A stretch of 64,000 nucleotides of DNA from Desulfobacterales bacterium (GCA_011049715.1 DRHF01000028.1:7449-71448), one strand, 5' to 3'; positions 25,390 through 59,676 are shown, counted from the first letter of the stretch. Program-made: numbers and translations. Notes: generated from the sequence alone by a model not told the origin.

Positions 25390-25393
25390 AAAA

Positions 25394-32858: not shown

Positions 32859-32895
32859 CGTCTTTTATTTCAATATGATCCGGTGTCTAAAGGTA

Positions 32896-34372: not shown

Positions 34373-34373
34373 C

Positions 34374-34402
34374 TTGACAACCGGAAAAAGAACCAATCTA
34401 AT
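34374..34402 (+). promoter_or_regulatory. candidate promoter of the GntR gene
   Basis: TTGACA at 34374-34379, a 17-nt spacer, then TCTAAT at 34397-34402. Followed by two GTATACAAA boxes (34406-34414 and 34442-34450). Confidence 0.3.
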
Positions 34403-34449
34403 AGAGTATACAAAATAGTCGAAATTATTAAGGACGATATGGTATACAA

Positions 34450-35106
34450 ATGGCTAAATCATTATTGAGAGAAAAAATTTACCAAACAATCAGAGATGAT
34501 ATTACCTACGGAAAGTTCGCACCTGGAGAGCGACTTGTTGAAGACAGATTGGTTGAAGAGTTTAAAGCCAGCAGGAGTCCTATACGAGAAGCTTTGAGGC
34601 AGTTGGAAAGTGAGGGCTTGATTACATTTGAAAGAAATAAAGGAATTACAATTGCCAGGCTATCGATTAAGCAGGTGGATGAAATATATACCTTGCGTTG
34701 CTTATTGGAAAGCGGTGCTGCGTGTCTAACTGCTGAAAGCATCACGAAAAAAGACGTGGCACATCTAAGAGATTTGCAGGAGAAGTTAAGAGTAGCGGTA
34801 AAAAATATGGATCTACGAGATTGGCTTCATAATAATGCCTTGTTTCATAATTTTTTGTGTGAACACTGTGGAAATAGCAACTTGATTCAAGTGCTTGATA
34901 ATCTTAAACGAAGGGTTTACCGATATCACTACATAACTGTTAGTGTTCCCGGGCATTTTGAAACTTACCTTGGGCATCACGAAGGAATGTTGCAAGCATG
35001 CGAAAAGAATGATGGAGAAATGGCAGAAAAATATATGAAGCTCCATTTGAAAACAGTTAAAGATGTCCTGATAAACCATTTAAATAAAATAACTCCAAAC
35101 TATTAG
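34450..35106 (+). CDS. GntR-family transcriptional regulator (FadR/FCD subfamily)
   Basis: 218 aa. N-terminal winged HTH (RLVEDRLVEEFKASRSPIREALRQLESEGLI) and a C-terminal helical FCD-like domain. Confidence 0.85.
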   Translation: MAKSLLREKIYQTIRDDITYGKFAPGERLVEDRLVEEFKASRSPIREALRQLESEGLITFERNKGITIARLSIKQVDEIYTLRCLLESGAACLTAESITKKDVAHLRDLQEKLRVAVKNMDLRDWLHNNALFHNFLCEHCGNSNLIQVLDNLKRRVYRYHYITVSVPGHFETYLGHHEGMLQACEKNDGEMAEKYMKLHLKTVKDVLINHLNKITPNY

Positions 35107-35111
35107 TGGGA

Positions 35112-35558
35112 ATGTTCGGAAACGGAGCAAAGCAGGTGATTAAAAAAATCGATCATATCGGGATTGCTGTTAAGGATCTGAAAAATACTTTGAATATGTA
35201 CAAAAGGGTTTATGGACTGGAGGCAATAAAAATAGAAACGCATGAAGATATAAAGATAAAGATCGCATTCATCCCGATAGGGGAAGTCCTTATCGAACTA
35301 TTGGAAGCAACAGAGCCCGGAGCGGGAAGGATAGGGCATTTCCTGGAGGAAAAAGGCGAAGGCCTTCACCATATAGCCTTAAGAGTAGAAAGTATCAATC
35401 GAGCAATGGAAAAGCTTAAACAGATTAATATCCCACTCAGGGATAAAGAGCCTCGGGATGGAGGTGATGGTTCTAAGATAGCATTTATCGAGCCGGAGTC
35501 CACACAAAACGTTCTAACCGAACTTGTTGAAAGAAAACGAGAGGTGACGGGAAATTGA
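35112..35558 (+). CDS. methylmalonyl-CoA epimerase-like VOC (glyoxalase fold) protein
   Basis: Epimerase pattern IDHIGIAVKDL...IELLE...GEGLHHIALRV...IAFIEP...VLTELVE. The ATG at 35112 is preferred; the track GTG at 35106 overlaps the GntR stop. Confidence 0.8.
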   Translation: MFGNGAKQVIKKIDHIGIAVKDLKNTLNMYKRVYGLEAIKIETHEDIKIKIAFIPIGEVLIELLEATEPGAGRIGHFLEEKGEGLHHIALRVESINRAMEKLKQINIPLRDKEPRDGGDGSKIAFIEPESTQNVLTELVERKREVTGN

Positions 35559-35560
35559 GA

Positions 35561-37135
35561 ATGAACATTCGGGATCTGCTGGAGAAACAAGCTGAAAAGT
35601 ATCCTGATAAAATATTTCTTTATTTTGAGGAAGAAAAAATCAATTACCAGGGTTTTAATCTTACAGTCAATCGAATTGCGAACGCGTTTAAAAAAATGGG
35701 GATCAAAAAAGGTGAGATGGTAGCCATCATGCTTCCCAACTCTCCTGCTTTTCTTTATACATGGATGGGCCTTAATAAAATAGGTGCCGTGGAGGTGCCT
35801 ATCAATATAGGCTTTAAAGAAACTGAGGTGAAATATATTCTACAGCATTCGGAAGCTTCAGCGATTGTAATCCATCAGGGCTACTATCCTATATTGAGCG
35901 GGATCAAAAAGGAAGAATTGCCCGATTTAAGAAATGTCATTTTTCATGGGGATGAAGCCACTCCTTACGAAACTATCCCATTCTCTACTTTGCTGGATGA
36001 GAAGGCTGAACTGGAAGAGGTCGCCATTTCCGAAGAAGATCCAGCTGCTTGTATTTACACCTCGGGAACCACAGATCGTCCTAAAGGTGTCCTTAATTCC
36101 CACAGAAGCTGGGTGCTAACAGGGGAGGCCTATGTATATACTGTGGGGATTACCTCTGAGGATCGTGTCATGACCCCCAACCCGCTTTTTCATGCAAATG
36201 CTCAGGTCTATTCAACCATGGGCTCCCTGGTGGCGGGAGCAAGTTTAATTTTACTGAAACATTTCAGTTCCTCTCGAATTTTGGAACAGGCACGGCATTA
36301 TAATGCAACTAAGATGGTCCTGGTTCAGGCTGTAACACCTTGGTTCTGGAATCGTCCGCGCAGGGAAGATGATGGAGACACCCCTGTAAAGACGATGGTG
36401 GCAGGAAATGTGCCTGCAGAAATATATCATGATTTTGAGCAACGGTTTCAGCTAAATATCCAGACCATTTACTCACTTACAGAGGCGCCCTTTGCCATTA
36501 TGGGGCCCAGACAAGGGACACAACCGAGGAAACCAGGGGGTATTGGTGTGCCTATGGAACATCCTGACCCGTCGATTAAAAACGAGGTAAAGATTGTTGA
36601 TGATACAGGCGCAGAGATTCCTTTGGGGCAGCAGGGAGAAATTATCATCCGAAATCCATCTACGATGATTGGATATTTTAAGAATCCTGAAAAGACGGCT
36701 GAAACAAAAAAAGATGGTTGGATTCATACAGGTGATATAGGGTATCAGGATGAAAATGGTTATCTATTCTTCGTAGGAAGGAAAAAGGAAGTTATACGCC
36801 GTAGAGGAGAACTGATTTCCCCTGCTGAGATAGAATCCGTTATTAATAGTCACCCAAGTGTTGATGAAACAGCCGTCATGGGTGTCCCATCCGGATTGGG
36901 AACAGGAGAAGAGGAGGTAAAAGCCTATGTGCGTTTGAAGCCTGGTGCAATCATTAATTCCGAAGAGATTGTATCCTGGTGTAATGGGAAATTAGCGGAA
37001 TTCAAGATCCCCCGTTTCCTGGAATTCTGCAATGATTTTCCCAGAAGCGCCATAGGCCGCATTCAAAAAAGCATATTAAAGGCAGAAAAACAAGATCTCA
37101 CTGATGGATGCTATGACCGCCTGAAGGAGGGATGA
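35561..37135 (+). CDS. AMP-forming acyl-CoA ligase (class I adenylate-forming enzyme)
   Basis: About 524 aa with motifs IYTSGTTDRPKGV, GWIHTGDIG and RKKEVIRRRGELISPAEIE. The ATG at 35561 lies just after the epimerase stop. Confidence 0.85.
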   Translation: MNIRDLLEKQAEKYPDKIFLYFEEEKINYQGFNLTVNRIANAFKKMGIKKGEMVAIMLPNSPAFLYTWMGLNKIGAVEVPINIGFKETEVKYILQHSEASAIVIHQGYYPILSGIKKEELPDLRNVIFHGDEATPYETIPFSTLLDEKAELEEVAISEEDPAACIYTSGTTDRPKGVLNSHRSWVLTGEAYVYTVGITSEDRVMTPNPLFHANAQVYSTMGSLVAGASLILLKHFSSSRILEQARHYNATKMVLVQAVTPWFWNRPRREDDGDTPVKTMVAGNVPAEIYHDFEQRFQLNIQTIYSLTEAPFAIMGPRQGTQPRKPGGIGVPMEHPDPSIKNEVKIVDDTGAEIPLGQQGEIIIRNPSTMIGYFKNPEKTAETKKDGWIHTGDIGYQDENGYLFFVGRKKEVIRRRGELISPAEIESVINSHPSVDETAVMGVPSGLGTGEEEVKAYVRLKPGAIINSEEIVSWCNGKLAEFKIPRFLEFCNDFPRSAIGRIQKSILKAEKQDLTDGCYDRLKEG

Positions 37136-37208
37136 GATGTTACTTTGCAAACAACTTCGGATTAGGCAAAAATAATAGACTTTTAGGTGACTAAAAGGAG
37201 TGTGTATT

Positions 37209-38240
37209 GTGGGAATAAAGGTTATACAGCAAGGTGTTGGATATTTAGGTAAAAAAGCGATTGAGCTCATGTTAAGGAAAAATATTGAGGTGGTTGCCGC
37301 GATAGGCCATCAAAGCCATATAGGGGAAGATATAGGCAAATTGGCTGGATTAGGGGAGGTGGGAGTTAAAGTCACTAATGATGTTCAGAAGGTGCTCGAG
37401 AACGTGAAAGCAGATGTAGTTTCAAATTGTACGGGAACAACATTATTGGGGGTATACGAACACATAAAGCCTTTTATTGAAGCCGGTATTAATGTGGTGA
37501 CAATGGCAGAAGAGTTTGGTTATCCATGGTACAGAGCACCTAAGCTGTCCAAAGAAATACATACAAATGCTAAAGCAAACAATGTGACAGTAGTCGGCAC
37601 GGGTCTTAATCCCGGTTTTTCATGGGATTTTATTCCCATCGCCTACATTAGTGCCTGTTGGAGGGTTGACAAAATAAAGGCTCGTAGGGTAACTGACTGG
37701 AGCAAAACAAGCCCCAGGCGGGCTCTTTTGAGGTTTGGTAAGAAGCCAGAAGAGTTTAGGAAAGGGGTGGTGGAAGGAAAAATTCCTTTGCATACGGGAT
37801 TCTATGAATGCATGCACTTGCTTGCGGATTCACTAAATTGGAAATTGGATAAGATAGTAGTAACTTGGGAAATGGCGGTTTCAAAAAGTTTTCGTGAGGC
37901 GGAGTTTGTTACTGTACAGCCTGGAACGACTGTTGGTTTCAAACAAGTGGCAACAGGAATAGTAGGTGGAGAAGCCAGGATAGTATTAGAGCTGTGTCCT
38001 TTTGTACACCCAAATTTGGACGAGGACGGAGTAGAATCAGGAGAAACCATATGGATCGAAGGAGAGCCGAGTTTTACGATCACCACAAAATGGGCCCCAG
38101 TAGAAGATGGAACGCCGCTTTGCACGGTAGCTCGGCTGGTGAACACTTTACAATCTGCTATAGAAGCCGAAAGCGGATTGCTTGCTGTGACCGATCTGCC
38201 ATTGACTAAAACCGTGCGAATTAGAGAAGTTGTCAAATGA
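37209..38240 (+). CDS. DapB-like NAD(P)-binding oxidoreductase; candidate of the 2,4-diaminopentanoate dehydrogenase / native amine dehydrogenase family
   Basis: About 343 aa. N-terminal Rossmann motif (IKVIQQGVGYLGKKAI) and a C-terminal DapB-like domain. The GTG at 37209 lies 8 nt after AAGGAG. The family call is from memory and is not certain. Confidence 0.5.
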   Translation: MGIKVIQQGVGYLGKKAIELMLRKNIEVVAAIGHQSHIGEDIGKLAGLGEVGVKVTNDVQKVLENVKADVVSNCTGTTLLGVYEHIKPFIEAGINVVTMAEEFGYPWYRAPKLSKEIHTNAKANNVTVVGTGLNPGFSWDFIPIAYISACWRVDKIKARRVTDWSKTSPRRALLRFGKKPEEFRKGVVEGKIPLHTGFYECMHLLADSLNWKLDKIVVTWEMAVSKSFREAEFVTVQPGTTVGFKQVATGIVGGEARIVLELCPFVHPNLDEDGVESGETIWIEGEPSFTITTKWAPVEDGTPLCTVARLVNTLQSAIEAESGLLAVTDLPLTKTVRIREVVK

Positions 38241-38375: not shown

Positions 38376-39749
38376 ATGGTTATGGTGAAAGAAGAGAAGT
38401 GGTCACGGTTACAAGATAAGATATATGAAGCGTATATGCAAAGGACACCTAAGTCCAAACAGATGTACAAGAGAGCACTCACGAACTTAGCTGGTGGTGT
38501 ATGTGGTCACGCAAGGCTGTTCCAGCCTTACCCACTTTATATGACTCATGGAATAGAAAGCAAAATATGGGATGTAGATACAAATGAGTACATCGATTGC
38601 TTTTTAAATGCCGGCTCTTTACTCTTAGGTCATTCCCATCCGGAGGTTATTAAGGAAATAAGGCAAGAAAGTGGAAAGGGATTGCTTGTTTACAACTCAG
38701 ATTTGGAAGTTAGGTGTGCTGAGCGGCTAAAAGAGGTCATCCCCTGTGCTGAGAGAGTGCGATTTGCAAACAGCGGTACTGAGGCAGTTATGTTCGCAGT
38801 TAGGGTTGCGAGGGAGTTTACTGGAAAGAATAAGATAATCAAGTTTTATGGGCATTACCACGGTCAAGATGACCAATTCCTAATTGGTACATCGACTAAT
38901 GAAGATGAGGTGATTTCATCAGGAGTGCCTCAAGACAGTTTAACAAATACGGTCTTATTGAGGTATAATTTCATCGAGGATGTAGTTCGTAAACTTGACG
39001 AAGATGATGATATTGCTGGAATAATTTTAGATCCGCAGATGAGCATGGGAGGCATATTCCCTGCAAGCATAGAATACTTAAAAAAGCTGAGACGTTTGTC
39101 AGAAGAGCGAGGAGTTGTTTTAATATTTGATGAGGTGATAACTGGTTTCAGATTAGCATTAGGAGGGGCACAGGAATATTTTGGGGTCACGCCTGACCTG
39201 GCGTGTTATTCTAAAAGTATAGCTGGTGGAGCCAAGTTTGCTGCATTTATGGGAAAGGAAGAGATAATGGAAAGGTTAGTTCCGGATGGCTTCAGCGCAT
39301 ACACCGGGGGGGGAAAGTCTGTTTTCCAATCGGGGACATATAATGACGGGATGGCGGCAATAGCGGGAGCCCTAGCAGCAATTAAGGTCTACAAGAAATT
39401 GAGCGAAAAAGGTGAGTATGAAAAGCTACATAAACGTACTGCAAATTTAGCTAAAGCCATTGAAATAGCATTTAAGGAGCGACGAATAGGGTGTCAGGTG
39501 AATTGCTTAGGTGCCTCTCTCAAAATATTTCTAACAGATCTGGAACCTTCATTCGAAACGTATTGCAAGCTTGATCGAATGGTTCTTTTCTTGTTCTTCT
39601 TAAGCCTAATCAATCATGGAATAATATTGTCATGGCCTTCATCGGGGTCAATTTTTCTATCCTTTGTACACACAGATGAGGATAATGAAAAGATAATTGA
39701 AGCAGTTAATTTAAGTTTGGAAAAATACAGGTTTGAAGAGGCTATATGA
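38376..39749 (+). CDS. class III (omega/GSA-aminomutase-like) PLP-dependent aminotransferase
   Basis: 457 aa with motifs FANSGTEAVMFAVRVAR, DEVITGFRL and YSKSIAGG (the putative PLP lysine). Confidence 0.85.
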   Translation: MVMVKEEKWSRLQDKIYEAYMQRTPKSKQMYKRALTNLAGGVCGHARLFQPYPLYMTHGIESKIWDVDTNEYIDCFLNAGSLLLGHSHPEVIKEIRQESGKGLLVYNSDLEVRCAERLKEVIPCAERVRFANSGTEAVMFAVRVAREFTGKNKIIKFYGHYHGQDDQFLIGTSTNEDEVISSGVPQDSLTNTVLLRYNFIEDVVRKLDEDDDIAGIILDPQMSMGGIFPASIEYLKKLRRLSEERGVVLIFDEVITGFRLALGGAQEYFGVTPDLACYSKSIAGGAKFAAFMGKEEIMERLVPDGFSAYTGGGKSVFQSGTYNDGMAAIAGALAAIKVYKKLSEKGEYEKLHKRTANLAKAIEIAFKERRIGCQVNCLGASLKIFLTDLEPSFETYCKLDRMVLFLFFLSLINHGIILSWPSSGSIFLSFVHTDEDNEKIIEAVNLSLEKYRFEEAI

Positions 39750-40003
39750 AGGAAACTACAAACTCTATCGAGGCTATGGAGAGATCACCTCCGGAAATCT
39801 CTGGCACCTACGGTTCGTCAAGGAAGAGCTTTACAGGCATCTTTGAGAATAACTTAAATCAGGCGATTAAAAATGATGGGAAAGGAGGTTTATTACCTTA
39901 ATAATCGCGAGTGGAAAAAGTCTAGACGTTAAGGAATCTCACAACGATGACAAAGCTAAAGTAAAATTAAACAAATAATACATTAAAATAAGGAGATAAG
40001 ATC

Positions 40004-44835: not shown

Positions 44836-44886
44836 GTAACACATAGACAGGGAATACCTCTCGTATAGTAACGTAAACGAAGTGCA

Positions 44887-45825: not shown

Positions 45826-45842
45826 AGGTTTACATTTCAATC

Positions 45843-46604: not shown

Positions 46605-46605
46605 G

Positions 46606-53319: not shown

Positions 53320-53550
53320 AAAGTCGAAATACGCGGAGTCGGCGTTAATAATATGGAGACGGCTATTATAGATGACAAGTTGACAACAACAGTAATTAAT
53401 CCTGGCCGGAAAGGTAAAGTAAACAATTCCAAGAGCTATATCTTGGAGGATATCGGGAAGGCCTAAAATGCGGTGTAGCGCCCCCCTCCCCGCCCTTTGG
53501 GCGGTCACAGTCATGTGGCTTTGCCTAAAAAGTCTCAAAGGACGCAGAGT

Positions 53551-53799
53551 ATGATTGTGGAAATAAAAATATCTTTTCCCCTTCGTCAGTATATACCAAG
53601 TTCCGTCAGACGTTTGGAGGGGGGTAAATGGGATATACCTAAAGGGACAAAGGTGTTAAAAATGGTGGAAATGTTAGGCCTCACTGAAGAAAAGTCCAAG
53701 AGCCTTCTGCTTCTGGTCAATGGCCATCATGTTGACAGGGAGAGAGTTTTGGATGACGGTGATTGTCTGCATGTTTTCCCGTTAATAAGTGGGGGTTGA
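53551..53799 (+). CDS. MoaD/ThiS-family small beta-grasp protein
   Basis: 82 aa from the ATG at 53551, ending ...VFPLISGG with the C-terminal Gly-Gly of sulfur carriers. Lies adjacent to aor. Confidence 0.6.
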   Translation: MIVEIKISFPLRQYIPSSVRRLEGGKWDIPKGTKVLKMVEMLGLTEEKSKSLLLLVNGHHVDRERVLDDGDCLHVFPLISGG

Positions 53800-54127: not shown

Positions 54128-55673
54128 CTACCCCTATAACGTTCCTAAAAAAACTTGATATTCGCCTCATGATTTGCCATACTACGAAAAAACCCTTTAA
54201 CGTAGGAGGCAAGCCATGCTACCAGTTTTGCGAAGAGACGAATATCTTTACTCGGTTCCAAAGTTTGACCTTGGCGAAGGGGATATTAAAGGTTTCATGA
54301 ATGAACTCGTAGGGTTCCATGAGCAATTTTCCGATTGCTTTCACCGTAGCGAATCCAGAGAGCACTTTTTCAACTACATGGCTGGGCAATTCAGCGACCT
54401 GGAACGAAAATCCATCGAACCTATCGCCTTAGGAGTTAAAGATGGAAATGTAAGGGCATTACAGCGATTTGTAATAAGCGTTGCGTCATGGGATGATGAT
54501 AAAATCATTTTCAAATATCGTAGTCTAGTTAACGAGGACCTCGGAAGTCAAGATGGAGCTTTGATTTTTGATGAAAGTGGCTTTATCAAAAAGGGCCAGG
54601 ACTCAGTGGGGGTGGCTCGACAGTATTGTGGCACAGCCGGCAAGGTCGACAATTGCCAAGTGGGCGTATTTGCCGCCTATGTATCCGAGCATGGGTACGC
54701 GATGGTCGACAAACGCCTGTTCATTCCTGAGCAATGGTTTTCGGAAGAATACCATGAGCGTCGGCAAAAATGTAATATGCCCGAGGATTCTGTGTTTCAG
54801 ACAAAGCCGCAGTTGGCTGCTGAAATGCTAATGGATATCAATTCGGAAAACGTATTGCCTTTTTTAAGTATGTCCTTGCCGATTCAATATACGGTGTGAG
54901 CCCCGAATTCATTGGAGCGGTGGAAAACTTACCGGGCATAACCTACTTCGTATCGGTCCATAAAAAAACACTCTGTTAGCTTAAACGACCAATGACCATT
55001 AGCAAGCGGTATCGATGGGGAGGCAAGGAACGAACCAAAATCGTTTTGGCCGACACCGACAGCAAACCAGTATCGGTCTGTGAGCTGGCCAAAAACATCA
55101 ACGATTATTTCTGGTACCGTCGCCAGGTGTCAGAAGGTGCGAAAGGCCCCATTGTGTATGAGTTTACACGGCGTCGAGTCATCTTGTCTGCTTCGGGGTT
55201 ACCGGAAAAAACCGTATGGTTGCTCATTCGAGGCACCATCGGCGACGATCCCCAATACAGCTATTTCATCAGCAACGCTCAGAGAAGCACGCAACTAAAG
55301 ACCCTTATTTGGCTCAGCGGCTTGCGCTGGGCGATCGAACAGTGTTTCGAGGAAGCCAAAACCGAGTTGGGCATGGACCACTACGAAGTGCGCAAGTTTA
55401 TGGCCTGGTATCATCACATCCTCACGTGCATAATGGCACATTTCTTTCTCTGGCACCTAAAAATCAGGTTGGGGAAAAAAAGCACCATCTATTACGCTAT
55501 CGCAGCTTAGAGTTTTGCTCAAACTACTGTTGCCAATGAAAAAACACACCTTTGAAACATTGATTGAACAGGTTGTTTGGATTCAGAACCGAAACCATCG
55601 TGCCTATCTCTCGCATAGGCGAAGACGACTATTTAAATTTGTCAAAGAGCAATAAATAACGTTGTAGGGCTAC
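54128..55673 (+). mobile_element. IS701-family-like insertion sequence, decayed
   Basis: About 1.55 kb. Tentative imperfect terminal inverted repeats: CTACCCCTATAACGTT (54128-54143) and AACGTTGTAGGGCTAC (55658-55673), 13/16 complementary. CTA lies on both flanks. It contains a single disrupted DDE transposase reading frame. Confidence 0.65.
54216..55655 (+). pseudogene. IS701-like DDE transposase, disrupted by two homopolymer frameshifts and one in-frame stop
   Basis: The protein continues across frames at three lesions. At the T6 run (54860-54865) it reads ...ENVLPF / KYVLADSIYGVSPEF. An in-frame TAG lies at 54977-54979 (HKKTLC*LKRPMT). At the A7 run (55475-55481) it reads ...RLGKK / APSITLSQLRVLL...FVKEQ*. 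Confidence 0.75.
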
Positions 55674-55777
55674 AATATGAGAGATTTTTATGAAAATCCC
55701 GCTAGGGAAATCAGAATGACACATAAGCACTGTTGATGAAAGGGTGATAATAAATAGCATTAAAAAGGGATAGTAAT

Positions 55778-56185
55778 ATGACTGTTCAGAAAAAGAAACT
55801 CAGGGTATTGATAGGTAAGCTTGGTTTAGACGGACATGATCGGGGAGCGAAGATTATTGCGAGGGCCTTACGGGATGCCGGGATGGAAGTGATTTTTACA
55901 GGGCTAAGAAAAACTCCGCAAGATATTACGAGGATAGCTGTTGAAGAAGATGTGGATATCATTGGTATCAGCCTTCTTTCCAGTGCGCATGAGACATTAT
56001 TGCCTGAACTGTGCCGATTATTAAAGGAAAATGATGCAGGAGATATCTCGGTGGTAGCCGGCGGGATAATTCCCAAAGATGATATTCCGGTTTTGAAACA
56101 AGCAGGTGTTAAAGCAGTTTTTGGCCCTGGTGATACACTTATGAAAATCATTAGTTATATTGAGTCTATAGAAACAACTGAGTAG
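55778..56185 (+). CDS. B12-binding small subunit of an acyl-CoA mutase
   Basis: 135 aa with the DxHxxG cobalamin motif (LGLDGHDRGAKIIA) and a later GGIIP. Confidence 0.85.
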   Translation: MTVQKKKLRVLIGKLGLDGHDRGAKIIARALRDAGMEVIFTGLRKTPQDITRIAVEEDVDIIGISLLSSAHETLLPELCRLLKENDAGDISVVAGGIIPKDDIPVLKQAGVKAVFGPGDTLMKIISYIESIETTE

Positions 56186-56188
56186 GAA

Positions 56189-57190
56189 ATGCATTTAACA
56201 GAAAAAAATCAGAGAGATAGTTTTGTGCTTGAATTGGTGGACAAAATGTTGAAAGGCTCAGTAAGAGCGCTTGGCAAGCTCATTACATTAATCGAGGATG
56301 AGTGCCCCGGATCGTTAGAGGCATTAAAAAAGGTGTATTATCACACAAAGGATGCATATGTAGTTGGATTAACAGGGGCTCCCGGGACAGGAAAAAGCAC
56401 ACTTGTCGATCGGATGGCAGTAGAGATAAAAAGGCAGGGTTTCAAGGTGGGGATTATTGCAATTGATCCGTCAAGCCCGTTCACAGGTGGGGCCTTTCTT
56501 GGTGATAGAGTGCGTATGATGAGCAGCTCTAATGAGAATGATATTTACATACGAAGTATGGGCACTCGAGGAAGCTTGGGAGGTCTTTCAGAAGCAACGG
56601 CAAGTACAGTCAAAATATTGGATGCGTTTGGAAAAGATTTTGTTTTGATCGAAACGGCCGGCACAGGTCAGGCGGAAGTTGATGTGATTAAGGAAACGGA
56701 TACAACGGTTGTAGTATGCGTGCCAGGACTGGGTGATGAGATTCAGACAATGAAAGCAGGGGTGATGGAGATCGGAGACATATTTGTTGTGAACAAGGCT
56801 GATCTGCAAGACGCTGACAGGTTAGCTGGAGATATTGAAACGATGCTACACATGGCTTATGGATCTAAGGAATGGATTCCGCCAATCATAAAGACAATCG
56901 CCACCGAGGGCACGGGTGTTGTTACTCTTATTGAAGAAATACTTAATCATCGTGAATATTTGATCAAAAGTGGTTTGCTAAAGAGCAAGAGGATAAGAAG
57001 AATTAAGCAAGAAATTATGGAAATTGCAAAAAACAAGATTATTGACAAAATCAATAATTCAGCAAATGGAGCGAATCAAGTTTCCGATGAGTTATTAAAT
57101 GAAATCATGCTGCGAGAGAAGGATCCTTATACGGCTGCGGAGGAGATTATTGGTAACTTTACTGAAGTTTTTCAGAAGTCTCATTTATAA
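56189..57190 (+). CDS. meaB: methylmalonyl-CoA mutase-associated GTPase (MeaB/ArgK)
   Basis: 333 aa. P-loop GAPGTGKSTL, ETAGTGQAE and NKADL. Confidence 0.9.
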   Translation: MHLTEKNQRDSFVLELVDKMLKGSVRALGKLITLIEDECPGSLEALKKVYYHTKDAYVVGLTGAPGTGKSTLVDRMAVEIKRQGFKVGIIAIDPSSPFTGGAFLGDRVRMMSSSNENDIYIRSMGTRGSLGGLSEATASTVKILDAFGKDFVLIETAGTGQAEVDVIKETDTTVVVCVPGLGDEIQTMKAGVMEIGDIFVVNKADLQDADRLAGDIETMLHMAYGSKEWIPPIIKTIATEGTGVVTLIEEILNHREYLIKSGLLKSKRIRRIKQEIMEIAKNKIIDKINNSANGANQVSDELLNEIMLREKDPYTAAEEIIGNFTEVFQKSHL

Positions 57191-57221
57191 AAACTAAGTA
57201 AAAAACCGGAAAGGGAGGCAT

Positions 57222-57627
57222 ATGACAACCATGTCAGGAACAGTTGACCATATTGGGATGGCAGTCAAGGATATTGAAAAATCAATATCCTTTTTTAAGG
57301 AGGTTTTCGGAGCGGAATTGCTTCGTAAAAACGTTGTAGGAGAACAGAATTTAATATCCGGCGTGATTTCGCTGGGGAGCATAAATGTTGAGTTGATGCA
57401 ATCTACGAAAGATAATAGCGTTATAGACAAATTCATTAAAAAAAAGGGGGGAAGGAGTTCACCACATATCTATTCAGGCAGAAGACTTAGATCGATTTTT
57501 GGGAAAGTTGGATTCAAAGAACATCAAAATTTTGAATAAGCTTGCAAACAGTGACTATAAAATAGCATTTATTCATCCTGAGAGGGCATTTGGCGTGTTG
57601 ATAGAAGTTATTGAAAGATTAACGTAA
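57222..57627 (+). pseudogene. second methylmalonyl-CoA epimerase-like VOC gene, frameshifted in an A8G6 tract
   Basis: Frame A gives MTTMSGTVDHIGMAVKDIEKS...DKFIKKKG. After the run aaaaaaaagggggg (about 57441-57454) the family-typical continuation (EGVHHISIQAEDLDRFL...IAFIHPERAFGVLIEVIERLT*) is in the +1 frame and ends at 57627. Confidence 0.75.
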
Positions 57628-57742
57628 GTAATAAGAAGAGATGAAAAACCAAGATTTCTTTTAAGAATATTTTCCGGAAATAAATATGGGGGCAACACAG
57701 GGAAAGTTTTTTACGGAGGCTTTTATGGGAAAGGGCAATAAA

Positions 57743-59413
57743 ATGAAAAAATTAATACAGGAAAATGAAAAATGGGAAAATGAAATTCTATCAGATGAAC
57801 TTAAGAAATCGGGGGAGAGAAAAGCTGATTTTAGTACCGCTTCCGGTATCCCTATAAAGAGATTATATTCACCGATTGATATGGAGGGCAAGGGCTTTGA
57901 TTATTTAAGAGACCTGAATTTTCCAGGATCTTATCCATTTACCAGGGGTAAAACACCGACAATGTACAGGAGTGACTTCTGGATTTTTGGACAATATGCC
58001 GGTTTTGGAACGGCAGAAGAGGCAAATAAAAGGTATAAATATTTAATGTCAAAGGGTTCTTCGGGTCTGTCTGTGGCCTTGGATCTTCCCACCCAAGTGG
58101 GCCTTGACTCTGATCATGATTTAGCCCGCGGTGAGGTTGGTAAAGTGGGTGTTGCCATTAATTCATTTAAAGACATTGAAGATTTGTTTGACGGAATTCC
58201 CCTGAATAAGCCAAGGCAGATCAGCACAACCGCCAACTCTATGGGGCCTGTCTGGGCTGCGATGCTCATAGCCTTAGGAAAAAAGCAGGGCGTTTCTCCT
58301 GAGAAATATAACTTGCGTCTTCAAAATGATAGTCTAAAGGAGTTTATCGCCCGTGGAACCTATATATTTCCGCCAAGTCCATCTTTGAAATTTTCTTGCG
58401 ATGTGATCGAGTATTTCGCGAATAATTCTCCGGGATGGTTTCCCATATCCATTTCCGGATATCATATTAGAGAAGCAGGGGCAACGGCAGTGCAAGAAGT
58501 GGCATTCACCATGGCAAATGCAATTGCGTATATCGAAGAAACCCTTAGCAGAGGTCTATCATTTGAAAAATTTGGTCCTCAATTAAGCGTTTTCTTGTCT
58601 TCCGGAATGGATCTGTTTGAGGAAATTGCAAAATTCAGGGCGATGAGAAGAGTGTGGTCTCGAATAATAAAAGAAAGATTCAAAATTGACGATTCAAAAC
58701 TATTGGCCTTAAACTTAATCTGCTTTACCGCCGGCTCAACCTTAACCGCCCAGCAGCCTTATAATAATTTAATGAGGGTAACGATTGAAGCCCTGGCTTC
58801 CGTCCTTGGCGGGTGCCAATCCCTTTTACCATCCTCTATGGACGAAGCGTTGTGTACACCTACGGAAAAAGCTGTTACTCTTTCTTTGAGGACACAGCAA
58901 ATCCTGGCCTATGAGACTAATATTGCCAGTACTATTGACCCGTTAGGAGGATCCTATTTCGTCGAGACATTAACTTTCGAGATCGAGGAAAGCGTTTTGG
59001 ATTACCTCGATAAAATTGATGAGATGGGAGGAGCAGTGCGTGCCATTGAAAATGGATTCTTCCAGAAAGAAATTTCCGAAGCATCGTTTCGTCGATATCA
59101 AAAGATAGAGACTGGAGAAGATGTGGTTGTGGGAGCTAATAAATTTGTCCACGATGAGGATACGAATATCGAAATAATGAAGACAGATCCGGAGTCAGAA
59201 ATACGGCAAGTGGAAAAAGTGAGGCGTGTGCGAAAAGAGAGAAACAATGACAGAGTTGAAAAAGCATTAGGGGAATTGAGAAAGAGTGCTGACAGGAATG
59301 ATAATCTGGTTCCCCCAATTTTAGAAGCCGTGAAATCCTATGCGACCATTGGGGAGATATGTGATGTATTGCGAGATGTCTATGGCGAACACGATCAACC
59401 CTCTTGTTACTGA
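57743..59413 (+). CDS. acyl-CoA mutase large (catalytic) subunit, methylmalonyl-CoA-mutase-like
   Basis: About 556 aa with MCM TIM-barrel motifs (PFTRG...MYRSDFWIFGQYAGFGT, LSVALDLPTQVG, QNDSLKEFIARGTYIFPP). The track start 57686 is upstream; I prefer the ATG at 57743. Confidence 0.9.
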   Translation: MKKLIQENEKWENEILSDELKKSGERKADFSTASGIPIKRLYSPIDMEGKGFDYLRDLNFPGSYPFTRGKTPTMYRSDFWIFGQYAGFGTAEEANKRYKYLMSKGSSGLSVALDLPTQVGLDSDHDLARGEVGKVGVAINSFKDIEDLFDGIPLNKPRQISTTANSMGPVWAAMLIALGKKQGVSPEKYNLRLQNDSLKEFIARGTYIFPPSPSLKFSCDVIEYFANNSPGWFPISISGYHIREAGATAVQEVAFTMANAIAYIEETLSRGLSFEKFGPQLSVFLSSGMDLFEEIAKFRAMRRVWSRIIKERFKIDDSKLLALNLICFTAGSTLTAQQPYNNLMRVTIEALASVLGGCQSLLPSSMDEALCTPTEKAVTLSLRTQQILAYETNIASTIDPLGGSYFVETLTFEIEESVLDYLDKIDEMGGAVRAIENGFFQKEISEASFRRYQKIETGEDVVVGANKFVHDEDTNIEIMKTDPESEIRQVEKVRRVRKERNNDRVEKALGELRKSADRNDNLVPPILEAVKSYATIGEICDVLRDVYGEHDQPSCY

Positions 59414-59676
59414 ATCGTGTAAGACTTGTAAAAGTCAGACTTGGTGAATCTGTCATTTCGAACATAGGCAGAAATCTTATGTTTTCAATGCCTGCCCTCC
59501 TCGCCTGAGCAGCTCGTAATGGCGGCTAGGTGGCGGGTAAGCCTCTCACGTTGAAGATTTTTCACTTCGATCGAAATAGCAACTGGATTGTATAGGAATT
59601 TCCTTTTTATGACAATGGGATGATCGGAGGCCATTTGACGAACAATATTTCATTTTATTTGTGTAATCATGTGGCG

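What the first reader, a model, noticed from the sequence alone, without database searches (positions are those of the whole stretch)
34373..59676. A ~25-kb compositionally distinct island that may encode an undescribed anaerobic route for a lactam, cyclic amino acid or diamino acid
Directly visible in the sequence:
- Arg is mostly AGA/AGG in this segment and third codon positions are A/T-rich.
- Almost every gene is preceded by an AGGAGG-like RBS. The flanks (1-33.6 kb and 59.9-64 kb) mostly use CGN Arg codons and weaker RBSs.
- The segment starts and ends exactly at duplicated flank DNA (33742-34372 and 59677-59820).
- There is no integrase or tRNA, only one decayed IS.

Gene content: GntR regulator, epimerase-like VOC protein, CoA ligase, DapB-like amine dehydrogenase candidate, class III aminotransferase, Liv-type ABC importer, two OCD/mu-crystallin paralogs, a HyuB+HyuA pair, W-type aldehyde:ferredoxin oxidoreductase, MoaD-like protein, and a split B12 acyl-CoA mutase with MeaB and a second epimerase.

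Each family is well known, but I know of no characterised pathway with this combination. A coherent reading is:
1. Uptake by the Liv-type importer.
2. Ring opening or ring chemistry by the ATP-dependent Hyu-type lactamase and the OCD-type cyclodeaminase or imine reductase.
3. Removal of the amino group by the aminotransferase or amine dehydrogenase, giving an aldehyde or ketone.
4. Oxygen-independent oxidation of the aldehyde by AOR.
5. CoA activation by the ligase.
6. Epimerase and B12 mutase entry into succinyl/propionyl-CoA metabolism.

Candidate substrates are proline, pipecolate, lysine, ornithine, 5-oxoproline, 2-pyrrolidone, valerolactam and ectoine-like compounds. The substrate cannot be deduced from the sequence alone.
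Basis: partly seen in the sequence, partly recalled or inferred. Interest (0 to 1): 0.8.

Follow-up and report, generated by a model that had tools for sequence, protein, structure and literature searches.

The report
Acquired anaerobic nitrogen-compound breakdown gene island
A sulfate-reducer-type bacterium from deep-sea sediment carries a 25-kb block of foreign genes that most likely imports and breaks down a nitrogen-containing ring compound or diamino acid without oxygen; the block is built from gene modules that recur in other uncultured anaerobes, its parts resemble known lactam and auxin breakdown routes, and its substrate is still unknown.

Summary
Genes in 34,373-59,676 have GC3 0.40 against 0.49 in the flanks, AGA/AGG makes up 61% of Arg codons against 34%, and the tetranucleotide profile is clearly foreign. 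The segment is bounded by imperfect (91-96%) copies of flank DNA. It has no tRNA and no integrase, only a decayed IS.

The host is a marine-sediment Desulfobacterales bacterium. Its flank proteins have dozens of relatives at 90% identity or more; the island proteins have none outside this sample.

All gene-family calls were confirmed, with two refinements:
- The "DapB-like" gene is a 2,4-diaminopentanoate-dehydrogenase/AmDH4-type amine dehydrogenase.
- The aminotransferase is HemL-like.

The island is not a random neighbourhood. OCD-OCD-LivHMGF-HyuB-HyuA-AOR, next to the same mutase, recurs at 53-72% identity in a MAG binned as Hodarchaeota. An AOR-HyuBA trio recurs in a Syntrophaceae MAG. GntR-epimerase-ligase-amine dehydrogenase recurs at 61-84%, and elsewhere sits next to mutase, thiolase and DUF35 genes.

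The claim that the combination has no precedent is too strong. The anaerobic indoleacetate (iaa) pathway combines a Hyu-type lactam hydrolase, a CoA ligase and a B12 mutase, and the caprolactam pathway combines a lactamase and an aminotransferase.

The mutase keeps the carboxylate-binding Tyr/Arg but is not a canonical methylmalonyl-CoA mutase. The substrate is unresolved. My verdict is a new variant of a known kind, of moderate interest.

The parts
33742..34371 (.). Left junction scar. It is a mosaic of four diverged copies of nearby host DNA: ligase upstream region, ligase internal piece, AcrB-end piece and HlyD internal piece.
   Evidence: Searches give 91-96% identity to 59677-59820, 60328-60619, 28396-28441 and 32237-32402. 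The independent assembly L116 confirms the window up to 34149.
34450..35106 (+). GntR/FCD-family transcriptional regulator
   Evidence: Pfam GntR plus FCD. Conserved at 61-62% at the head of the same module in L032, L033 and L034.
35106..35558 (+). VOC-fold protein resembling methylmalonyl-CoA epimerase (Epi1)
   Evidence: Pfam Glyoxalase_4. TIGR03081 scores 114.8 bits against a cut-off of 114.95. It always sits next to the ligase in L032-L035, at 51-76% identity.
35555..37135 (+). AMP-forming acyl-CoA ligase. Its start overlaps the end of Epi1 by 4 nt.
   Evidence: Pfam AMP-binding plus AMP-binding_C. No NCBIfam equivalog reaches its cut-off. No PDB relative at 1e-60. 50-83% identical in L032-L035.
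37200..38240 (+). NAD(P)-dependent amine dehydrogenase of the 2,4-diaminopentanoate dehydrogenase / AmDH4 family (Ord-like)
   Evidence: Pfam DAP_DH_C plus DapB_N. NF040740 scores 246 bits against a cut-off of 400. Best PDB hits are 7xdu and 6g1h/6g1m. The Glu and Arg aligned with positions 102 and 161 of chain 6g1m are kept. The residues aligned with positions 163 (Asn) and 264 (His) are Thr and Leu. Two subfamily-invariant Arg residues (R174, R178) are present.
38376..39749 (+). Class-III PLP enzyme of the HemL-like subgroup (aminotransferase or aminomutase)
   Evidence: Pfam Aminotran_3. TIGR00713 hemL scores 338 bits against a cut-off of 527. Best PDB hits are GSA aminomutases, followed by D-phenylglycine and beta-transaminases and the MycA aminotransferase domain.
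40004..41185 (+). Periplasmic solute-binding protein of the Liv/Peripla_BP_6 type
   Evidence: Pfam. Only weak PDB relatives, E >= 1e-13, so there is no ligand inference.
41714..42697 (+). OCD/mu-crystallin family enzyme, paralog 1
   Evidence: Pfam. Best PDB hit is 6t3e, a delta1-pyrroline-2-carboxylate reductase. No NCBIfam equivalog cut-off is reached. The subfamily is extremely rare; the ortholog in L004 is 70% identical.
42808..43788 (+). OCD/mu-crystallin family enzyme, paralog 2. Its central 540 nt are homogenised with paralog 1.
   Evidence: Pfam. The ortholog in L004 is 71% identical. Concerted evolution is shown.
43972..47307 (+). LivH/LivM permeases and LivG/LivF ATPases of an ABC importer (43972-44835, 44887-45825, 45843-46604, 46588-47307)
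   Evidence: Pfam BPD_transp_2 twice, plus ABC_tran with BCA_ABC_TP_C. Same order in L004 at 53-68% identity.
47432..49249 (+). HyuB, the metal-containing hydrolytic subunit of an ATP-dependent lactamase/hydantoinase-family enzyme
   Evidence: Pfam Hydantoinase_B. CapB model scores 286 bits against a cut-off of 1000. Best PDB hit is caprolactamase 6yra_B at 1e-63, against carboxylases at 1e-25 to 1e-34. The Asp48-His106-Asp109-His131 tetrad is present; there is no vicinal Cys-Cys.
49246..51318 (+). HyuA, the ATP-binding subunit. Its start overlaps the end of HyuB.
   Evidence: Pfam Hydant_A_N, Hydantoinase_A and Hydant_A_C. CapA model scores 610 bits against a cut-off of 1000. The motifs DIGGTFTD, DMGGT and GAQPGP are present (motifs defined in PMC8453981).
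51490..53319 (+). Tungsten-type aldehyde:ferredoxin oxidoreductase of the AOR clade
   Evidence: Pfam AFOR_N plus AFOR_C. PDB 9mqx at 7e-189 and 1aor at 3e-170. Orthologs lie next to HyuBA in L004 (64%) and L010 (66%).
53497..53799 (+). ThiS/MoaD-like small protein. The true start is probably near 53515.
   Evidence: Pfam ThiS. Called as a 94-aa gene in L001.
54216..55510 (+). Decayed IS: a DDE_5 transposase split into two ORFs, with flank-like codon usage and no recognisable terminal inverted repeats
   Evidence: Present at the same place in the independent assembly L001.
55778..56185 (+). B12-binding small subunit of an acyl-CoA mutase
   Evidence: Pfam B12-binding. TIGR00640 scores 161 bits against a cut-off of 57. 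79-80% identical in L035.
56189..57190 (+). MeaB-type G-protein chaperone
   Evidence: Pfam MeaB, 290 bits.
57222..57627 (+). Second epimerase-like VOC gene, frameshifted in an A5G6 run near 57441-57451
   Evidence: Pfam Glyoxalase on the first 75 residues. The rest of the domain reads in the next frame. The same 105-aa ORF appears in L001.
57686..59413 (+). Large subunit of a B12 acyl-CoA mutase. It has the Tyr104/Arg223 carboxylate-binding signature but a non-canonical pocket.
   Evidence: Pfam MM_CoA_mutase. NF006944 scores 534 bits against a cut-off of 876. Best PDB hit is HcmA 4r3u, then human MCM. Motif analysis.
59677..59820 (.). Right boundary: the resident copy of the ligase upstream region, which is duplicated at 33742-33885

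Best explanation
The segment is a horizontally acquired catabolic island in the chromosome of an uncultured marine-sediment Desulfobacterales bacterium. It joins three gene modules that also occur, separately or in other combinations, in other uncultured anaerobes.

**Modules**
- **Module B:** binding protein, two OCD paralogs, LivHMGF, HyuB/HyuA, AOR and a MoaD-like protein.
- **Module A:** GntR regulator, epimerase-like VOC protein, acyl-CoA ligase and an Ord-like amine dehydrogenase, here followed by a HemL-like PLP enzyme.
- **Module C:** split B12 acyl-CoA mutase, MeaB and a second, frameshifted epimerase.

**Most likely mechanism** (every catalytic step is inferred from family membership and gene linkage; none is shown)
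1. The ABC system imports a nitrogenous compound. It is probably a cyclic imino acid, lactam or diamino acid of the proline/pipecolate/ornithine/lysine kind.
2. The two OCD enzymes carry out NAD(P)-linked chemistry on a ring C=N or C-N bond next to a carboxylate.
3. HyuBA opens a lactam ring at the cost of ATP.
4. The amine dehydrogenase turns an amine on a substituted carbon into a ketone. The PLP enzyme turns a terminal amine into an aldehyde.
5. AOR oxidises the aldehyde (or the cyclic imine/hemiaminal form) to the acid with ferredoxin, without oxygen.
6. The ligase makes the CoA thioester.
7. The epimerase and the B12 mutase rearrange a carboxylated acyl-CoA so that it can be cleaved or decarboxylated. 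This parallels the rearrangement of substituted succinyl-CoA in the anaerobic indoleacetate and alkane routes.

**What is shown**
- The foreign composition of the segment.
- The family identity of every gene.
- The catalytic motifs of HyuA and HyuB.
- The Tyr/Arg signature of the mutase.
- The recurrence of the modules elsewhere.
For: **Foreign origin**
- GC3, Arg-codon and tetranucleotide shifts.
- Flank housekeeping proteins (Ffh, RelA/SpoT, ProS) belong to 90%-identity clusters of 34-47 members named Desulfobacterales. Island proteins belong to clusters of 1-4 members; the contigs I traced and the only source name in these clusters (LCGC14, marine sediment metagenome) point to this sample.

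**Linkage**
- L004: mutase (72%), OCD1 (70%), OCD2 (71%), LivHMGF (53-68%), HyuB (70%), HyuA (64%) and AOR (64%) in the same order.
- L010, a Syntrophaceae MAG: AOR (66%) directly upstream of HyuB/HyuA (47%).
- L032 and L033: GntR (61%), VOC (76%), ligase (82%) and Ord-like (84%).
- L034 and L035: Liv transporter, Amidohydro_2, Ord-like, mutase, VOC, ligase, thiolase and DUF35, with McmS-MeaB-mutase in addition in L035.
- Among 80 distant Ord-like loci, 9 carry a HemL-like gene and 4-5 carry HyuA-HyuB, which lies immediately downstream of the Ord-like gene in L054, L084 and L091.

**Enzyme level**
- HyuA has all three ATP motifs and HyuB has the metal tetrad. The gene order is B then A, as in the cap genes (PMC8453981).
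- HyuB is far closer to caprolactamase and N-methylhydantoinase than to the ketone carboxylases.
- The nearest relatives of the OCD paralogs are Pyr2C reductases. One sits next to a proline-racemase-family gene and another next to an AcnX-family gene (Pfam AcnX; from my own knowledge, the cis-3-hydroxyproline dehydratase family).
- The AOR belongs to the broad-specificity AOR clade.
- The mutase keeps Tyr104 and Arg223.

**Precedent**
- The iaa pathway uses IaaM, IaaB, IaaCE and IaaGH in the same logic (PMC8360864; PMC8453981).
Against: - No substrate, transcript or activity data exist.
- Module A occurs without module B (L032, L033), and module B occurs without a visible module A (L004). They could therefore serve different substrates.
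- Gaps of 255 nt and 529 nt flank the binding-protein gene, which would allow separate transcription units.
- The island lacks the thiolase/DUF35 pair and any decarboxylating enzyme that related loci or the iaa route carry, so the end of the pathway is open.
- An IS remnant separates AOR/MoaD from the mutase genes, and the second epimerase is frameshifted, so module C may be impaired.
- No NCBIfam equivalog cut-off is reached by any catalytic protein, apart from the generic mutase domain models. Specificities are therefore unknown.
- The two outer junctions are not confirmed by an independent assembly.
Confidence: 0.5

Rival explanations
1. Several independent operons were brought together by transfer and are merely adjacent: an amine/amino-acid module (GntR to aminotransferase), a lactam or imino-acid uptake and ring-opening module (binding protein to AOR), and an ordinary succinate/propionate module (mutase, MeaB, epimerase). 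There is no common substrate.
For: - Module A stands alone, with a DAO-type oxidase instead of the aminotransferase, in L032 and L033.
- L004 shows modules B and C without module A in the 22 kb I could see.
- Long intergenic gaps lie at 39750-40003 and 41186-41713.
- The tetranucleotide profile of 56-60 kb (correlation 0.78) differs from that of 40-48 kb (0.46-0.50).
- An IS remnant sits between modules B and C.
Against: - The mutase is linked to module B in L004 and to module A in L034 and L035. Ord-like genes are linked to HyuAB and to HemL-like genes in distant lineages. The parts are therefore connected pairwise in several independent genomes.
- The mutase is not a canonical MCM.
- All genes are co-directional, with uniform GC3 of 0.35-0.45.
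Confidence: 0.22
2. HyuBA is an ATP-dependent carboxylase, not a lactamase. The Ord-like dehydrogenase turns an imported amine into a ketone, HyuBA carboxylates the ketone to a beta-keto acid, and the ligase (with thiolase in related loci) completes the breakdown. AOR handles the aldehydes formed from primary amines.
For: - Ord-like genes lie immediately upstream of HyuA-HyuB in L054, L084 and L091.
- Thiolase/DUF35 follows the ligase in L034 and L035.
- Acetone and acetophenone carboxylases belong to the same superfamily, and caprolactamase itself needs bicarbonate for ATP turnover (PMC8453981).
Against: - HyuB matches caprolactamase (1e-63) and N-methylhydantoinase (8e-51) far better than acetophenone carboxylase (1e-34) or acetone carboxylase (1.6e-25). 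The match to acetone carboxylase covers only part of the protein.
- HyuA scores 610 bits on the CapA model against 360 bits on ApcC.
- No gene lies between LivF, HyuB, HyuA and AOR that could encode the small extra subunit. That the characterised ketone carboxylases need such a subunit is from my own knowledge.
Confidence: 0.1
3. The island is a decaying remnant that no longer works as a pathway. It is foreign DNA kept by chance.
For: - Split transposase, frameshifted epimerase and a scrambled left junction.
- The island proteins are found only in this sample.
Against: - Twenty of the 21 non-IS genes are intact over 24 kb.
- HyuA, HyuB and the mutase keep their catalytic motifs.
- The first epimerase copy is intact.
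- The frameshift lies in a homopolymer run and could be an error or a slippage site.
Confidence: 0.1
4. The segment is an assembly chimera that joins a Desulfobacterales chromosome to DNA of another organism at repeated sequence.
For: - Independent assemblies break at or near both junctions. L116 ends at 34149, L117 at 33787 and L001 at 59249.
- The composition differs sharply.
Against: - The repeats at the junctions are only 91-96% identical, which is too diverged to mislead an assembler easily.
- The left mosaic, including the join at 33885, is reproduced in an independent assembly (L116, 99.95%).
- The IS remnant inside the island has flank-like codon usage, which suggests residence in this host.
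- The resident ligase gene resumes in register on the right side.
Confidence: 0.04

Closest known systems
Anaerobic indoleacetate (iaa) pathway of Aromatoleum aromaticum / Azoarcus evansii (IaaM, IaaB, IaaCE, IaaL, IaaGH, IaaF)
   Same: - Both are oxygen-independent breakdown routes for an N-heterocycle.
- Both use a periplasmic binding protein, an AMP-forming CoA ligase, a two-subunit Hyu-like ATP-dependent hydrolase that opens a lactam ring, and a B12 acyl-CoA mutase acting on a carboxylated (substituted succinyl/malonyl) CoA ester.
- iaa-like operons are predicted in sulfate reducers and in an archaeon (PMC8360864; PMC8453981).
   Different: - The island has no IaaF-type decarboxylating acyl-CoA dehydrogenase and no IaaL-type CoA transferase.
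- The island adds two OCD enzymes, an Ord-like amine dehydrogenase, a HemL-like PLP enzyme and a tungsten-type AOR.
- Nothing points to an aromatic substrate.
- I could not compare sequences with IaaC, IaaE, IaaG or IaaH, because none were available to the tools.
Caprolactam / valerolactam catabolism in Pseudomonas (CapAB or OplBA, plus an omega-aminotransferase and an aldehyde dehydrogenase)
   Same: - An ATP-dependent lactamase encoded in the order B then A, with the same ATP motifs and metal tetrad.
- It is followed in the pathway by a class-III aminotransferase and then oxidation of the aldehyde to a dicarboxylate (PMC8453981; PMC6061476 abstract).
- CapB is the best solved relative of HyuB.
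   Different: - Both subunits score far below the equivalog cut-offs (610 and 286 bits against 1000).
- The vicinal Cys-Cys of the caprolactam pocket is absent.
- The aminotransferase belongs to the HemL-like subgroup.
- From my own knowledge, the Pseudomonas route uses an NAD-dependent aldehyde dehydrogenase; here the only aldehyde-oxidising enzyme encoded is a ferredoxin-dependent tungsten-type AOR.
- OCD, amine dehydrogenase and B12 mutase have no counterpart in that route.
Delta1-pyrroline-2-carboxylate / delta1-piperideine-2-carboxylate reductases of the OCD/mu-crystallin family (hydroxyproline and D-amino-acid routes)
   Same: - The best solved relative is 6t3e.
- The next-nearest natural relatives lie beside a proline-racemase-family gene and an AcnX dehydratase gene.
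- The Rossmann motif is intact in both paralogs.
   Different: - Only 41-51% identity to those relatives.
- No NCBIfam equivalog cut-off is met.
- Here the enzyme is a tandem pair with a homogenised cofactor domain and divergent substrate domains. I have not seen this described for known members.
2,4-Diaminopentanoate dehydrogenase (Ord) and the native amine dehydrogenase AmDH4
   Same: - Same fold and domain pair.
- The Glu and Arg aligned with positions 102 and 161 of AmDH4 chain 6g1m are kept (I recall these as the catalytic Glu and the carboxylate-binding Arg).
   Different: - NF040740 scores 246 bits against a cut-off of 400.
- The residues aligned with positions 163 (Asn) and 264 (His) of chain 6g1m are Thr and Leu here.
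- Two extra invariant Arg residues are present.
- No ornithine aminomutase or 2-amino-4-ketopentanoate thiolase genes are nearby.
Methylmalonyl-CoA mutase / epimerase / MeaB module
   Same: - Split large and B12-binding subunits, a MeaB chaperone and an adjacent epimerase-like VOC gene.
- Tyr and Arg at the positions that bind the substrate carboxylate.
   Different: - 45% identical to human MCM and 44% to HcmA, which are themselves 45% identical to each other.
- The HCQ and HTNS motifs shared by human MCM and HcmA read ICF and LPSS here.
- Among the 50%-identity representatives, this aromatic variant is a minority within the Tyr/Arg class.

Membership tests
ATP-dependent lactamase family (hydantoinase/oxoprolinase; CapAB type) | Two subunits, HyuA (ASKHA ATP-binding) and HyuB, encoded side by side | tested here: met
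   Pfam Hydantoinase_B (401 bits) and Hydant_A_N/Hydantoinase_A/Hydant_A_C. The genes overlap at 49246-49249, in the order B then A as in P. jessenii (PMC8453981).
ATP-dependent lactamase family (hydantoinase/oxoprolinase; CapAB type) | ATP motifs DxGGTxTD, DxGGT and GxxPGP in the A subunit, and the Asp-His-Asp-His metal tetrad in the B subunit | tested here: met
   HyuA has DIGGTFTD (8), DMGGT (290) and GAQPGP (353). HyuB has D48, H106, D109 and H131, a constant offset of 7 from CapB D41/H99/D102/H124. These residues are invariant in alignment A1.
Caprolactamase proper (CapA/CapB equivalogs) | Score above the NCBIfam equivalog cut-off, and the vicinal Cys-Cys platform of the caprolactam pocket | tested here: not met
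   610 and 286 bits against cut-offs of 1000. There is no CC dipeptide in HyuB.
Acetone / acetophenone carboxylases | Closer similarity to carboxylase subunits than to hydrolases, and an additional small subunit gene | tested here: not met
   Carboxylase matches are much weaker. No extra ORF lies between LivF, HyuB, HyuA and AOR.
Anaerobic indoleacetate (iaa) cluster | Hyu-like hydrolase, CoA ligase, B12 mutase and binding protein together | tested here: met
   Met at family level only. The pathway description comes from PMC8360864 and PMC8453981.
Anaerobic indoleacetate (iaa) cluster | IaaF-type decarboxylating acyl-CoA dehydrogenase and IaaL-type CoA transferase | tested here: not met
   None of the 22 island ORFs hits an acyl-CoA dehydrogenase or CoA-transferase family.
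Canonical methylmalonyl-CoA mutase | Tyr and Arg that bind the substrate carboxylate (human MUT RQYAGF and MVRNTY) | tested here: met
   Tyr104 in GQYAGF and Arg223 in IARGTY.
Canonical methylmalonyl-CoA mutase | The remaining pocket motifs shared by human MCM and HcmA (HCQ, HTNS/G), and the equivalog score | tested here: not met
   The window reads ICF and LPSS. NF006944 scores 534 bits against a cut-off of 876, although that model describes the fused form. That these positions line the pocket is from my memory of the P. shermanii structure and was not tested here.
2,4-Diaminopentanoate dehydrogenase (Ord) | Equivalog score, and a neighbourhood with ornithine aminomutase and 2-amino-4-ketopentanoate thiolase | tested here: not met
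   246 bits against a cut-off of 400. No such neighbours in the window or in L032-L035.
Ornithine cyclodeaminase proper | Equivalog score for ornithine cyclodeaminase | tested here: not met
   NF005762 scores 103 bits against a cut-off of 350. The best models are archaeal alanine dehydrogenase (183 against 409) and an OCD-family model (167 against 417).
Tungsten-type aldehyde:ferredoxin oxidoreductase, AOR clade | Both AFOR domains at full length, and closest similarity to characterised AORs rather than to FOR, GAPOR, WOR5 or BamB | tested here: met
   Pfam 469 and 279 bits. PDB 9mqx at 7e-189 and 1aor at 3e-170, against FOR at 1e-100, WOR5 at 2e-71 and BamB at 2e-66. The metal content cannot be tested.
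Horizontally acquired genomic island | Deviant composition, and absence from close relatives of the host | tested here: met
   Composition. The cluster-size contrast is 34-47 members for flank proteins against 1-4 for island proteins. I could not retrieve an empty site in a related genome.
Horizontally acquired genomic island | Integrase, tRNA target or perfect direct repeats | tested here: not met
   No tRNA and no integrase family. The flanking repeats are 91-96% identical and scrambled.

The most novel reading that the evidence does not exclude
The conserved block of two OCD paralogs, a tungsten-type AOR and HyuBA may be an undescribed oxygen-independent way to open saturated N-heterocycles.

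1. An OCD-type dehydrogenase makes the cyclic imine.
2. AOR oxidises the imine, hemiaminal or amino-aldehyde form to a lactam or amino acid.
3. The ATP-dependent lactamase opens the ring.
4. A new clade of B12 mutase then takes over. It keeps the carboxylate-binding Tyr/Arg but has an aromatic pocket, and it would rearrange a substituted succinyl-CoA.

The block would have been exchanged between sulfate-reducing bacteria and Asgard archaea.
Probability: 0.2. Interest if true: 0.8.

Novelty: new variant of a known kind. Interest (0 to 1): 0.55.

Why it matters
How strict anaerobes in marine sediment break down proline/pipecolate-type rings, lactams and diamino acids is still poorly mapped, as far as I know.

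- **Enzymes to test.** The island offers a compact, conserved set of candidates. In particular it links AOR with HyuBA, and it contains a non-canonical mutase that keeps the Tyr/Arg signature. All of these could be expressed and assayed directly.
- **Possible new chemistry.** If the triad works as proposed, it would add a tungsten-dependent step to N-heterocycle ring opening. It would also extend the "substituted succinyl-CoA mutase" logic of the auxin and alkane routes to aliphatic nitrogen compounds.
- **Possible cross-domain transfer.** The near-identical gene order in a contig binned as Hodarchaeota would, if the binning is right, be a case of metabolic gene transfer between bacteria and Asgard archaea.

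Tried and rejected
- **Promoter/terminator scan of 53300-62000.** Counts were no higher than in shuffled sequence, so it was not used.
- **Rfam scan of the whole window.** No riboswitch or other RNA that could hint at a ligand.
- **tRNA scan.** None found.
- **Genome-collection scan with a HyuB profile.** It returned only relatives of 47% identity or less. It found neither the window's genome nor a second full cluster, but it did yield the AOR-HyuBA trio in L010.
- **Metagenome scan with the Ord-like profile.** It returned only members at 31-37% identity because one pattern was generic. These were useful only for linkage statistics.
- **Plasmid search with HyuB.** Only distant rhizobial, agrobacterial and similar homologs of 45% identity or less.
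- **Search for IS ends.** No convincing terminal inverted repeats.
- **Literature.**
  - No paper combines hydantoinase, OCD and AOR.
  - No paper combines acyl-CoA mutase, amine dehydrogenase and thiolase.
  - The single paper holding both "levulinyl-CoA" and "mutase" concerns engineered Pseudomonas putida; going by its title and abstract it does not describe such an enzyme.
  - The original iaa paper (PMC3370604) is not held.
  - PMC4207700 was uninformative.
- **Rejected idea: a levulinyl-CoA to 2-methylacetoacetyl-CoA mutase fed by an AmDH4-like 4-aminopentanoate dehydrogenase.**
  - The window's mutase keeps the carboxylate-binding Arg and Tyr. Only the extra mutase of L035 has Phe/Thr at those positions.
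  - The residues aligned with Asn163 and His264 of AmDH4 chain 6g1m are replaced by Thr and Leu.
- **Rejected ideas: ectoine or creatinine as substrate.** Neither accounts for the mutase, and the ectoine idea also leaves HyuBA without a role. The glycine-reductase-type genes beside L004 are absent from the window.
- **Binding-protein ligand inference.** PDB relatives are too distant.

Full report
**1. Observation**

A sliding GC profile shows 0.44-0.49 in 1-33 kb, dropping to 0.39-0.44 in 34-59 kb, with a strong positive GC skew because every island gene is on the + strand.

Per-gene statistics confirm a sharp difference:
- Mean GC3 is 0.395 for 20 island genes and 0.487 for 40 flank genes (Mann-Whitney p = 1.4e-8).
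- AGA/AGG makes up 61% of Arg codons in the island and 34% in the flanks (Fisher p = 1e-16).
- The strand-symmetrised tetranucleotide profile of 4-kb windows correlates 0.90-0.95 with the left flank outside the island and 0.46-0.78 inside it.

The Shine-Dalgarno claim is weaker. A match of 5 nt or more lies before 9/20 island genes and 4/40 flank genes. At 4 nt the difference is not significant, and the starts were chosen mechanically.

There is no tRNA, no Rfam match and no integrase. The only mobile-element remnant is a DDE_5 transposase split by a frame change and a stop. Its codon usage resembles the flanks.

**2. Boundaries**

The left junction contains two more pieces: 34170-34215 against 28396-28441, and 34202-34371 against 32237-32402, both at 91%.

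Along the + strand the host order of these pieces is D (AcrB end), C (HlyD), TetR, A (ligase upstream), B (ligase interior). The scar reads A'-B'-D'-C', then the island, then A and B. This is what an old duplication, or an incoming homeologous copy, of the efflux-TetR-ligase region would leave after deletions, with the island sitting where TetR would be in the second copy. This reading is inference.

Independent assemblies give partial support:
- L116 reproduces window 22896-34149 at 99.95%, including the A'|B' join.
- L029, L002, L003 and L001 reproduce 39676-43419 and 43425-59249, including the IS and the frameshifted epimerase.
- No independent contig crosses 34150-34450 or 59250-59900.

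**3. Host and donor**

- The flank encodes ProS, RelA/SpoT, Ffh, RpsP, RimM, TrmD, RplS and RNase HII.
- Ffh, RelA and ProS fall in 90%-identity clusters of 34-47 sequences named Desulfobacterales or Desulfobacter.
- HyuA, AOR, the mutase, the aminotransferase and the ligase fall in clusters of 1-4 sequences; the contigs I traced and the only source name in these clusters (LCGC14, marine sediment metagenome) point to this sample, alongside run SRR1555744 of PRJNA259156.

The island is therefore accessory DNA in a widespread lineage.

**4. Gene content**

The refinements are as follows.

*Amine dehydrogenase.* The "DapB-like" gene carries the DAP_DH_C domain. Its best solved relatives are 7xdu and AmDH4 (6g1h, 6g1m).
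- It keeps the Glu and Arg aligned with positions 102 and 161 of AmDH4 chain 6g1m.
- The residues aligned with positions 163 (Asn) and 264 (His) of that chain are Thr and Leu.
- It has two subfamily-invariant Arg residues that AmDH4 lacks.

*Class-III enzyme.* It is HemL-like. That subgroup also holds beta-transaminases, D-phenylglycine aminotransferase and the MycA aminotransferase domain.

*HyuA and HyuB.* They carry all the ATP motifs and the metal tetrad defined for caprolactamase, in the same B-A gene order. They lack the Cys-Cys platform and score far below the equivalog cut-offs. HyuB is much closer to caprolactamase and N-methylhydantoinase than to the ketone carboxylases.

*AOR.* It belongs to the broad-specificity AOR clade.

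*Second epimerase.* It is frameshifted in an A5G6 run.

*Mutase large subunit.*
- It keeps Tyr104 and Arg223, the residues that bind the carboxylate in methylmalonyl-CoA mutase (the role of these residues is from established knowledge of the P. shermanii and human enzymes).
- It reads ICF and LPSS where human MCM and HcmA read HCQ and HTNS/HTNG.
- It is 45% identical to human MCM and 44% to HcmA, which are 45% identical to each other.
- Among 50%-identity representatives near it, 50 have Tyr/Arg. Most of those have HxQ and HTN, and a minority have an aromatic residue as here.

I therefore treat the mutase as a carboxylate-recognising acyl-CoA mutase of unknown specificity, not as a proven MCM.

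**5. Linkage in other genomes**

This is the main new evidence.

*L004.* In a 5.8-billion-protein search, the closest HyuB (69%) lies on a 34-kb contig binned as Candidatus Hodarchaeota. The contig carries, in this order: thiolase, DUF35, a MeaB fragment, mutase (72%), OCD1 (70%), OCD2 (71%), LivHMGF (53-68%), HyuB, HyuA (64%) and AOR (64%). Glycine-reductase-type GrdE/GrdB genes follow.

*The OCD subfamily is almost unique to these two loci.* The next relatives are 51% and about 41-44% identical. Two of them sit beside a proline-racemase-family gene or beside an AcnX-family gene with a TRAP transporter.

*L010.* A Syntrophaceae MAG has AOR (66%) directly upstream of HyuB/HyuA (47%).

*Module A.*
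- GntR-VOC-ligase-Ord-like recurs at 61-84% in L032 and L033, followed there by a DAO-type oxidase.
- In L034 and L035 it is embedded in this order: Liv transporter, Amidohydro_2, Ord-like, mutase, VOC, ligase, thiolase, DUF35. L035 adds McmS (79-80%), MeaB (67%) and a second mutase (73-74%).
- The extra mutase of L035 has Phe/Thr at the two specificity positions.

*Distant Ord-like loci.* Among 80 loci at 31-37% identity, nine carry a HemL-like gene and four or five carry HyuA-HyuB. The pair lies immediately downstream of the Ord-like gene in L054, L084 and L091.

*Other close HyuBA homologs.* They sit with Liv-type transporters or a class-III aminotransferase.

The parts of the island are thus connected pairwise in several independent lineages, with the mutase as the common partner of modules A and B.

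**6. Mechanism**

The best-supported reading is a catabolic route for an imported nitrogenous compound.

Shown:
- The family identities of all genes.
- The intact catalytic motifs.
- The recurrent gene linkage.

Inferred:
- SBP-dependent ABC import.
- NAD(P)-linked imino-acid chemistry by the two OCD enzymes.
- ATP-driven lactam opening by HyuBA.
- Deamination by the amine dehydrogenase (to a ketone) and by the PLP enzyme (to an aldehyde).
- Ferredoxin-linked oxidation of the aldehyde by AOR.
- CoA activation by the ligase.
- Epimerisation, then B12-dependent rearrangement of a carboxylated acyl-CoA, with thiolysis or decarboxylation by enzymes encoded elsewhere.

The tight AOR-HyuBA linkage suggests a more specific possibility: AOR produces the lactam, or its open form, from a cyclic imine that the OCD enzymes make. 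This is speculative.

I put 0.5 on the general reading.

**7. Comparison with known systems**

Two characterised routes already contain large parts of this logic.

*The anaerobic indoleacetate pathway.* It uses a binding protein (IaaM), a CoA ligase (IaaB), a Hyu-like ATP-dependent hydrolase that opens the lactam ring of 2-oxoindoleacetate (IaaCE), and a B12 mutase that interconverts (2-aminophenyl)succinyl-CoA and (2-aminobenzyl)malonyl-CoA (IaaGH). Predicted iaa operons occur in sulfate reducers and in Ferroglobus (PMC8360864; PMC8453981).

*The caprolactam pathway.* It uses CapAB followed by an aminotransferase (PMC6061476 abstract; PMC8453981).

The island is a member of neither:
- It lacks IaaF and IaaL.
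- It fails the caprolactamase equivalog tests.
- It adds the OCD pair, the Ord-like dehydrogenase and the tungsten-type AOR.

No paper in the library combines hydantoinase, OCD and AOR.

**8. Rivals**

| Rival | Probability | Main argument against |
|---|---|---|
| Independent operons that are merely adjacent | 0.22 | Cross-linkage of the modules in several genomes |
| HyuBA as a ketone carboxylase downstream of the amine dehydrogenase | 0.10 | Similarity pattern favours hydrolases; no third subunit gene |
| A decaying remnant | 0.10 | 20 intact genes and conserved catalytic motifs |
| An assembly chimera | 0.04 | Repeats are diverged; the left scar is reproduced independently |

**9. Verdict**

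- The island is a new variant of a known kind: an anaerobic catabolic cluster for an N-heterocycle, lactam or amino compound, built around a Hyu-type ATP-dependent hydrolase and a B12 acyl-CoA mutase.
- The substrate is unknown.
- Interest is moderate, at 0.55. The conserved OCD-OCD-ABC-HyuBA-AOR block, the non-canonical mutase and the possible bacterium-Asgard sharing are real leads. Nothing here overturns current understanding, and function remains to be shown.

Noticed in passing
window 41714-42697 and 42808-43788; L004 4328-5311 and 5419-6405: The two OCD paralogs evolve in concert. Their central 540 nt (the Rossmann domain) are 93% identical within the window and 96% within L004, but only 79-80% between the two genomes. 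The first 360 nt and the last 90 nt are about 56% identical between paralogs and 71-72% between orthologs. Repeated gene conversion of the cofactor domain must have occurred in both lineages while the substrate/dimer domains stayed distinct.
   Followed up: yes
window 33742-34371: The left junction is a patchwork of four fragments copied from the neighbouring AcrB, HlyD and ligase region at 91-96% identity. They lie in the permuted order A'-B'-D'-C'. This suggests an old duplication, or a homeologous incoming copy, of that region followed by deletions.
   Followed up: partly
window 57222-57627: The second methylmalonyl-CoA-epimerase-like gene is split by a frameshift in an A5G6 homopolymer run. 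The same ORF appears in an independent assembly. It could be a true pseudogene, a slippage site or a shared sequencing error.
   Followed up: partly
window 54216-55510: The IS remnant inside the island has flank-like codon usage (GC3 0.47-0.63, AGR 15-25%). This suggests it entered after the island arrived in this host. L034 carries an intact 413-aa DDE_5 transposase near its copy of module A.
   Followed up: no
L035 12443-14107: A second acyl-CoA mutase large subunit sits next to the VOC-ligase pair. It has Phe and Thr at the two specificity positions where MCM has Tyr/Arg and HCM has Ile/Gln. In one search the commonest non-Tyr/Arg pair was Phe/Gln (5 representatives, the pair I recall for ICM) and no Phe/Thr pair appeared. 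It may act on an uncharged substrate. The representative search shows a wide variety of residue pairs at these positions.
   Followed up: partly
L004 16742-19420: GrdE-like and GrdB-like genes (substrate-specific component B of glycine/sarcosine/betaine reductase) lie directly downstream of AOR on the contig binned as Hodarchaeota. The GrdB-like ORF appears to read through an in-frame stop, as expected for a selenoprotein. The archaeal assignment of this contig was not checked.
   Followed up: no
L054, L084, L091 (about 10001-14900 in each): Distant Ord-like amine dehydrogenase genes (32-34%) are immediately followed by HyuA-HyuB pairs in A-B order. This independent linkage of the two families is not explained by any described pathway that I know of.
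   Followed up: partly
L034 and L035, about 8900-9840: An Amidohydro_2-family gene precedes the Ord-like gene, in the place where the window has HyuBA further downstream. It may be an ATP-independent alternative for ring opening or decarboxylation.
   Followed up: no
window 41186-41713: A 529-nt gap between the binding-protein gene and OCD1 contains only an antisense 113-aa ORF with no family hit on record (the corresponding called gene in L029). No RNA family matched. It may hold a promoter or regulatory region.
   Followed up: no
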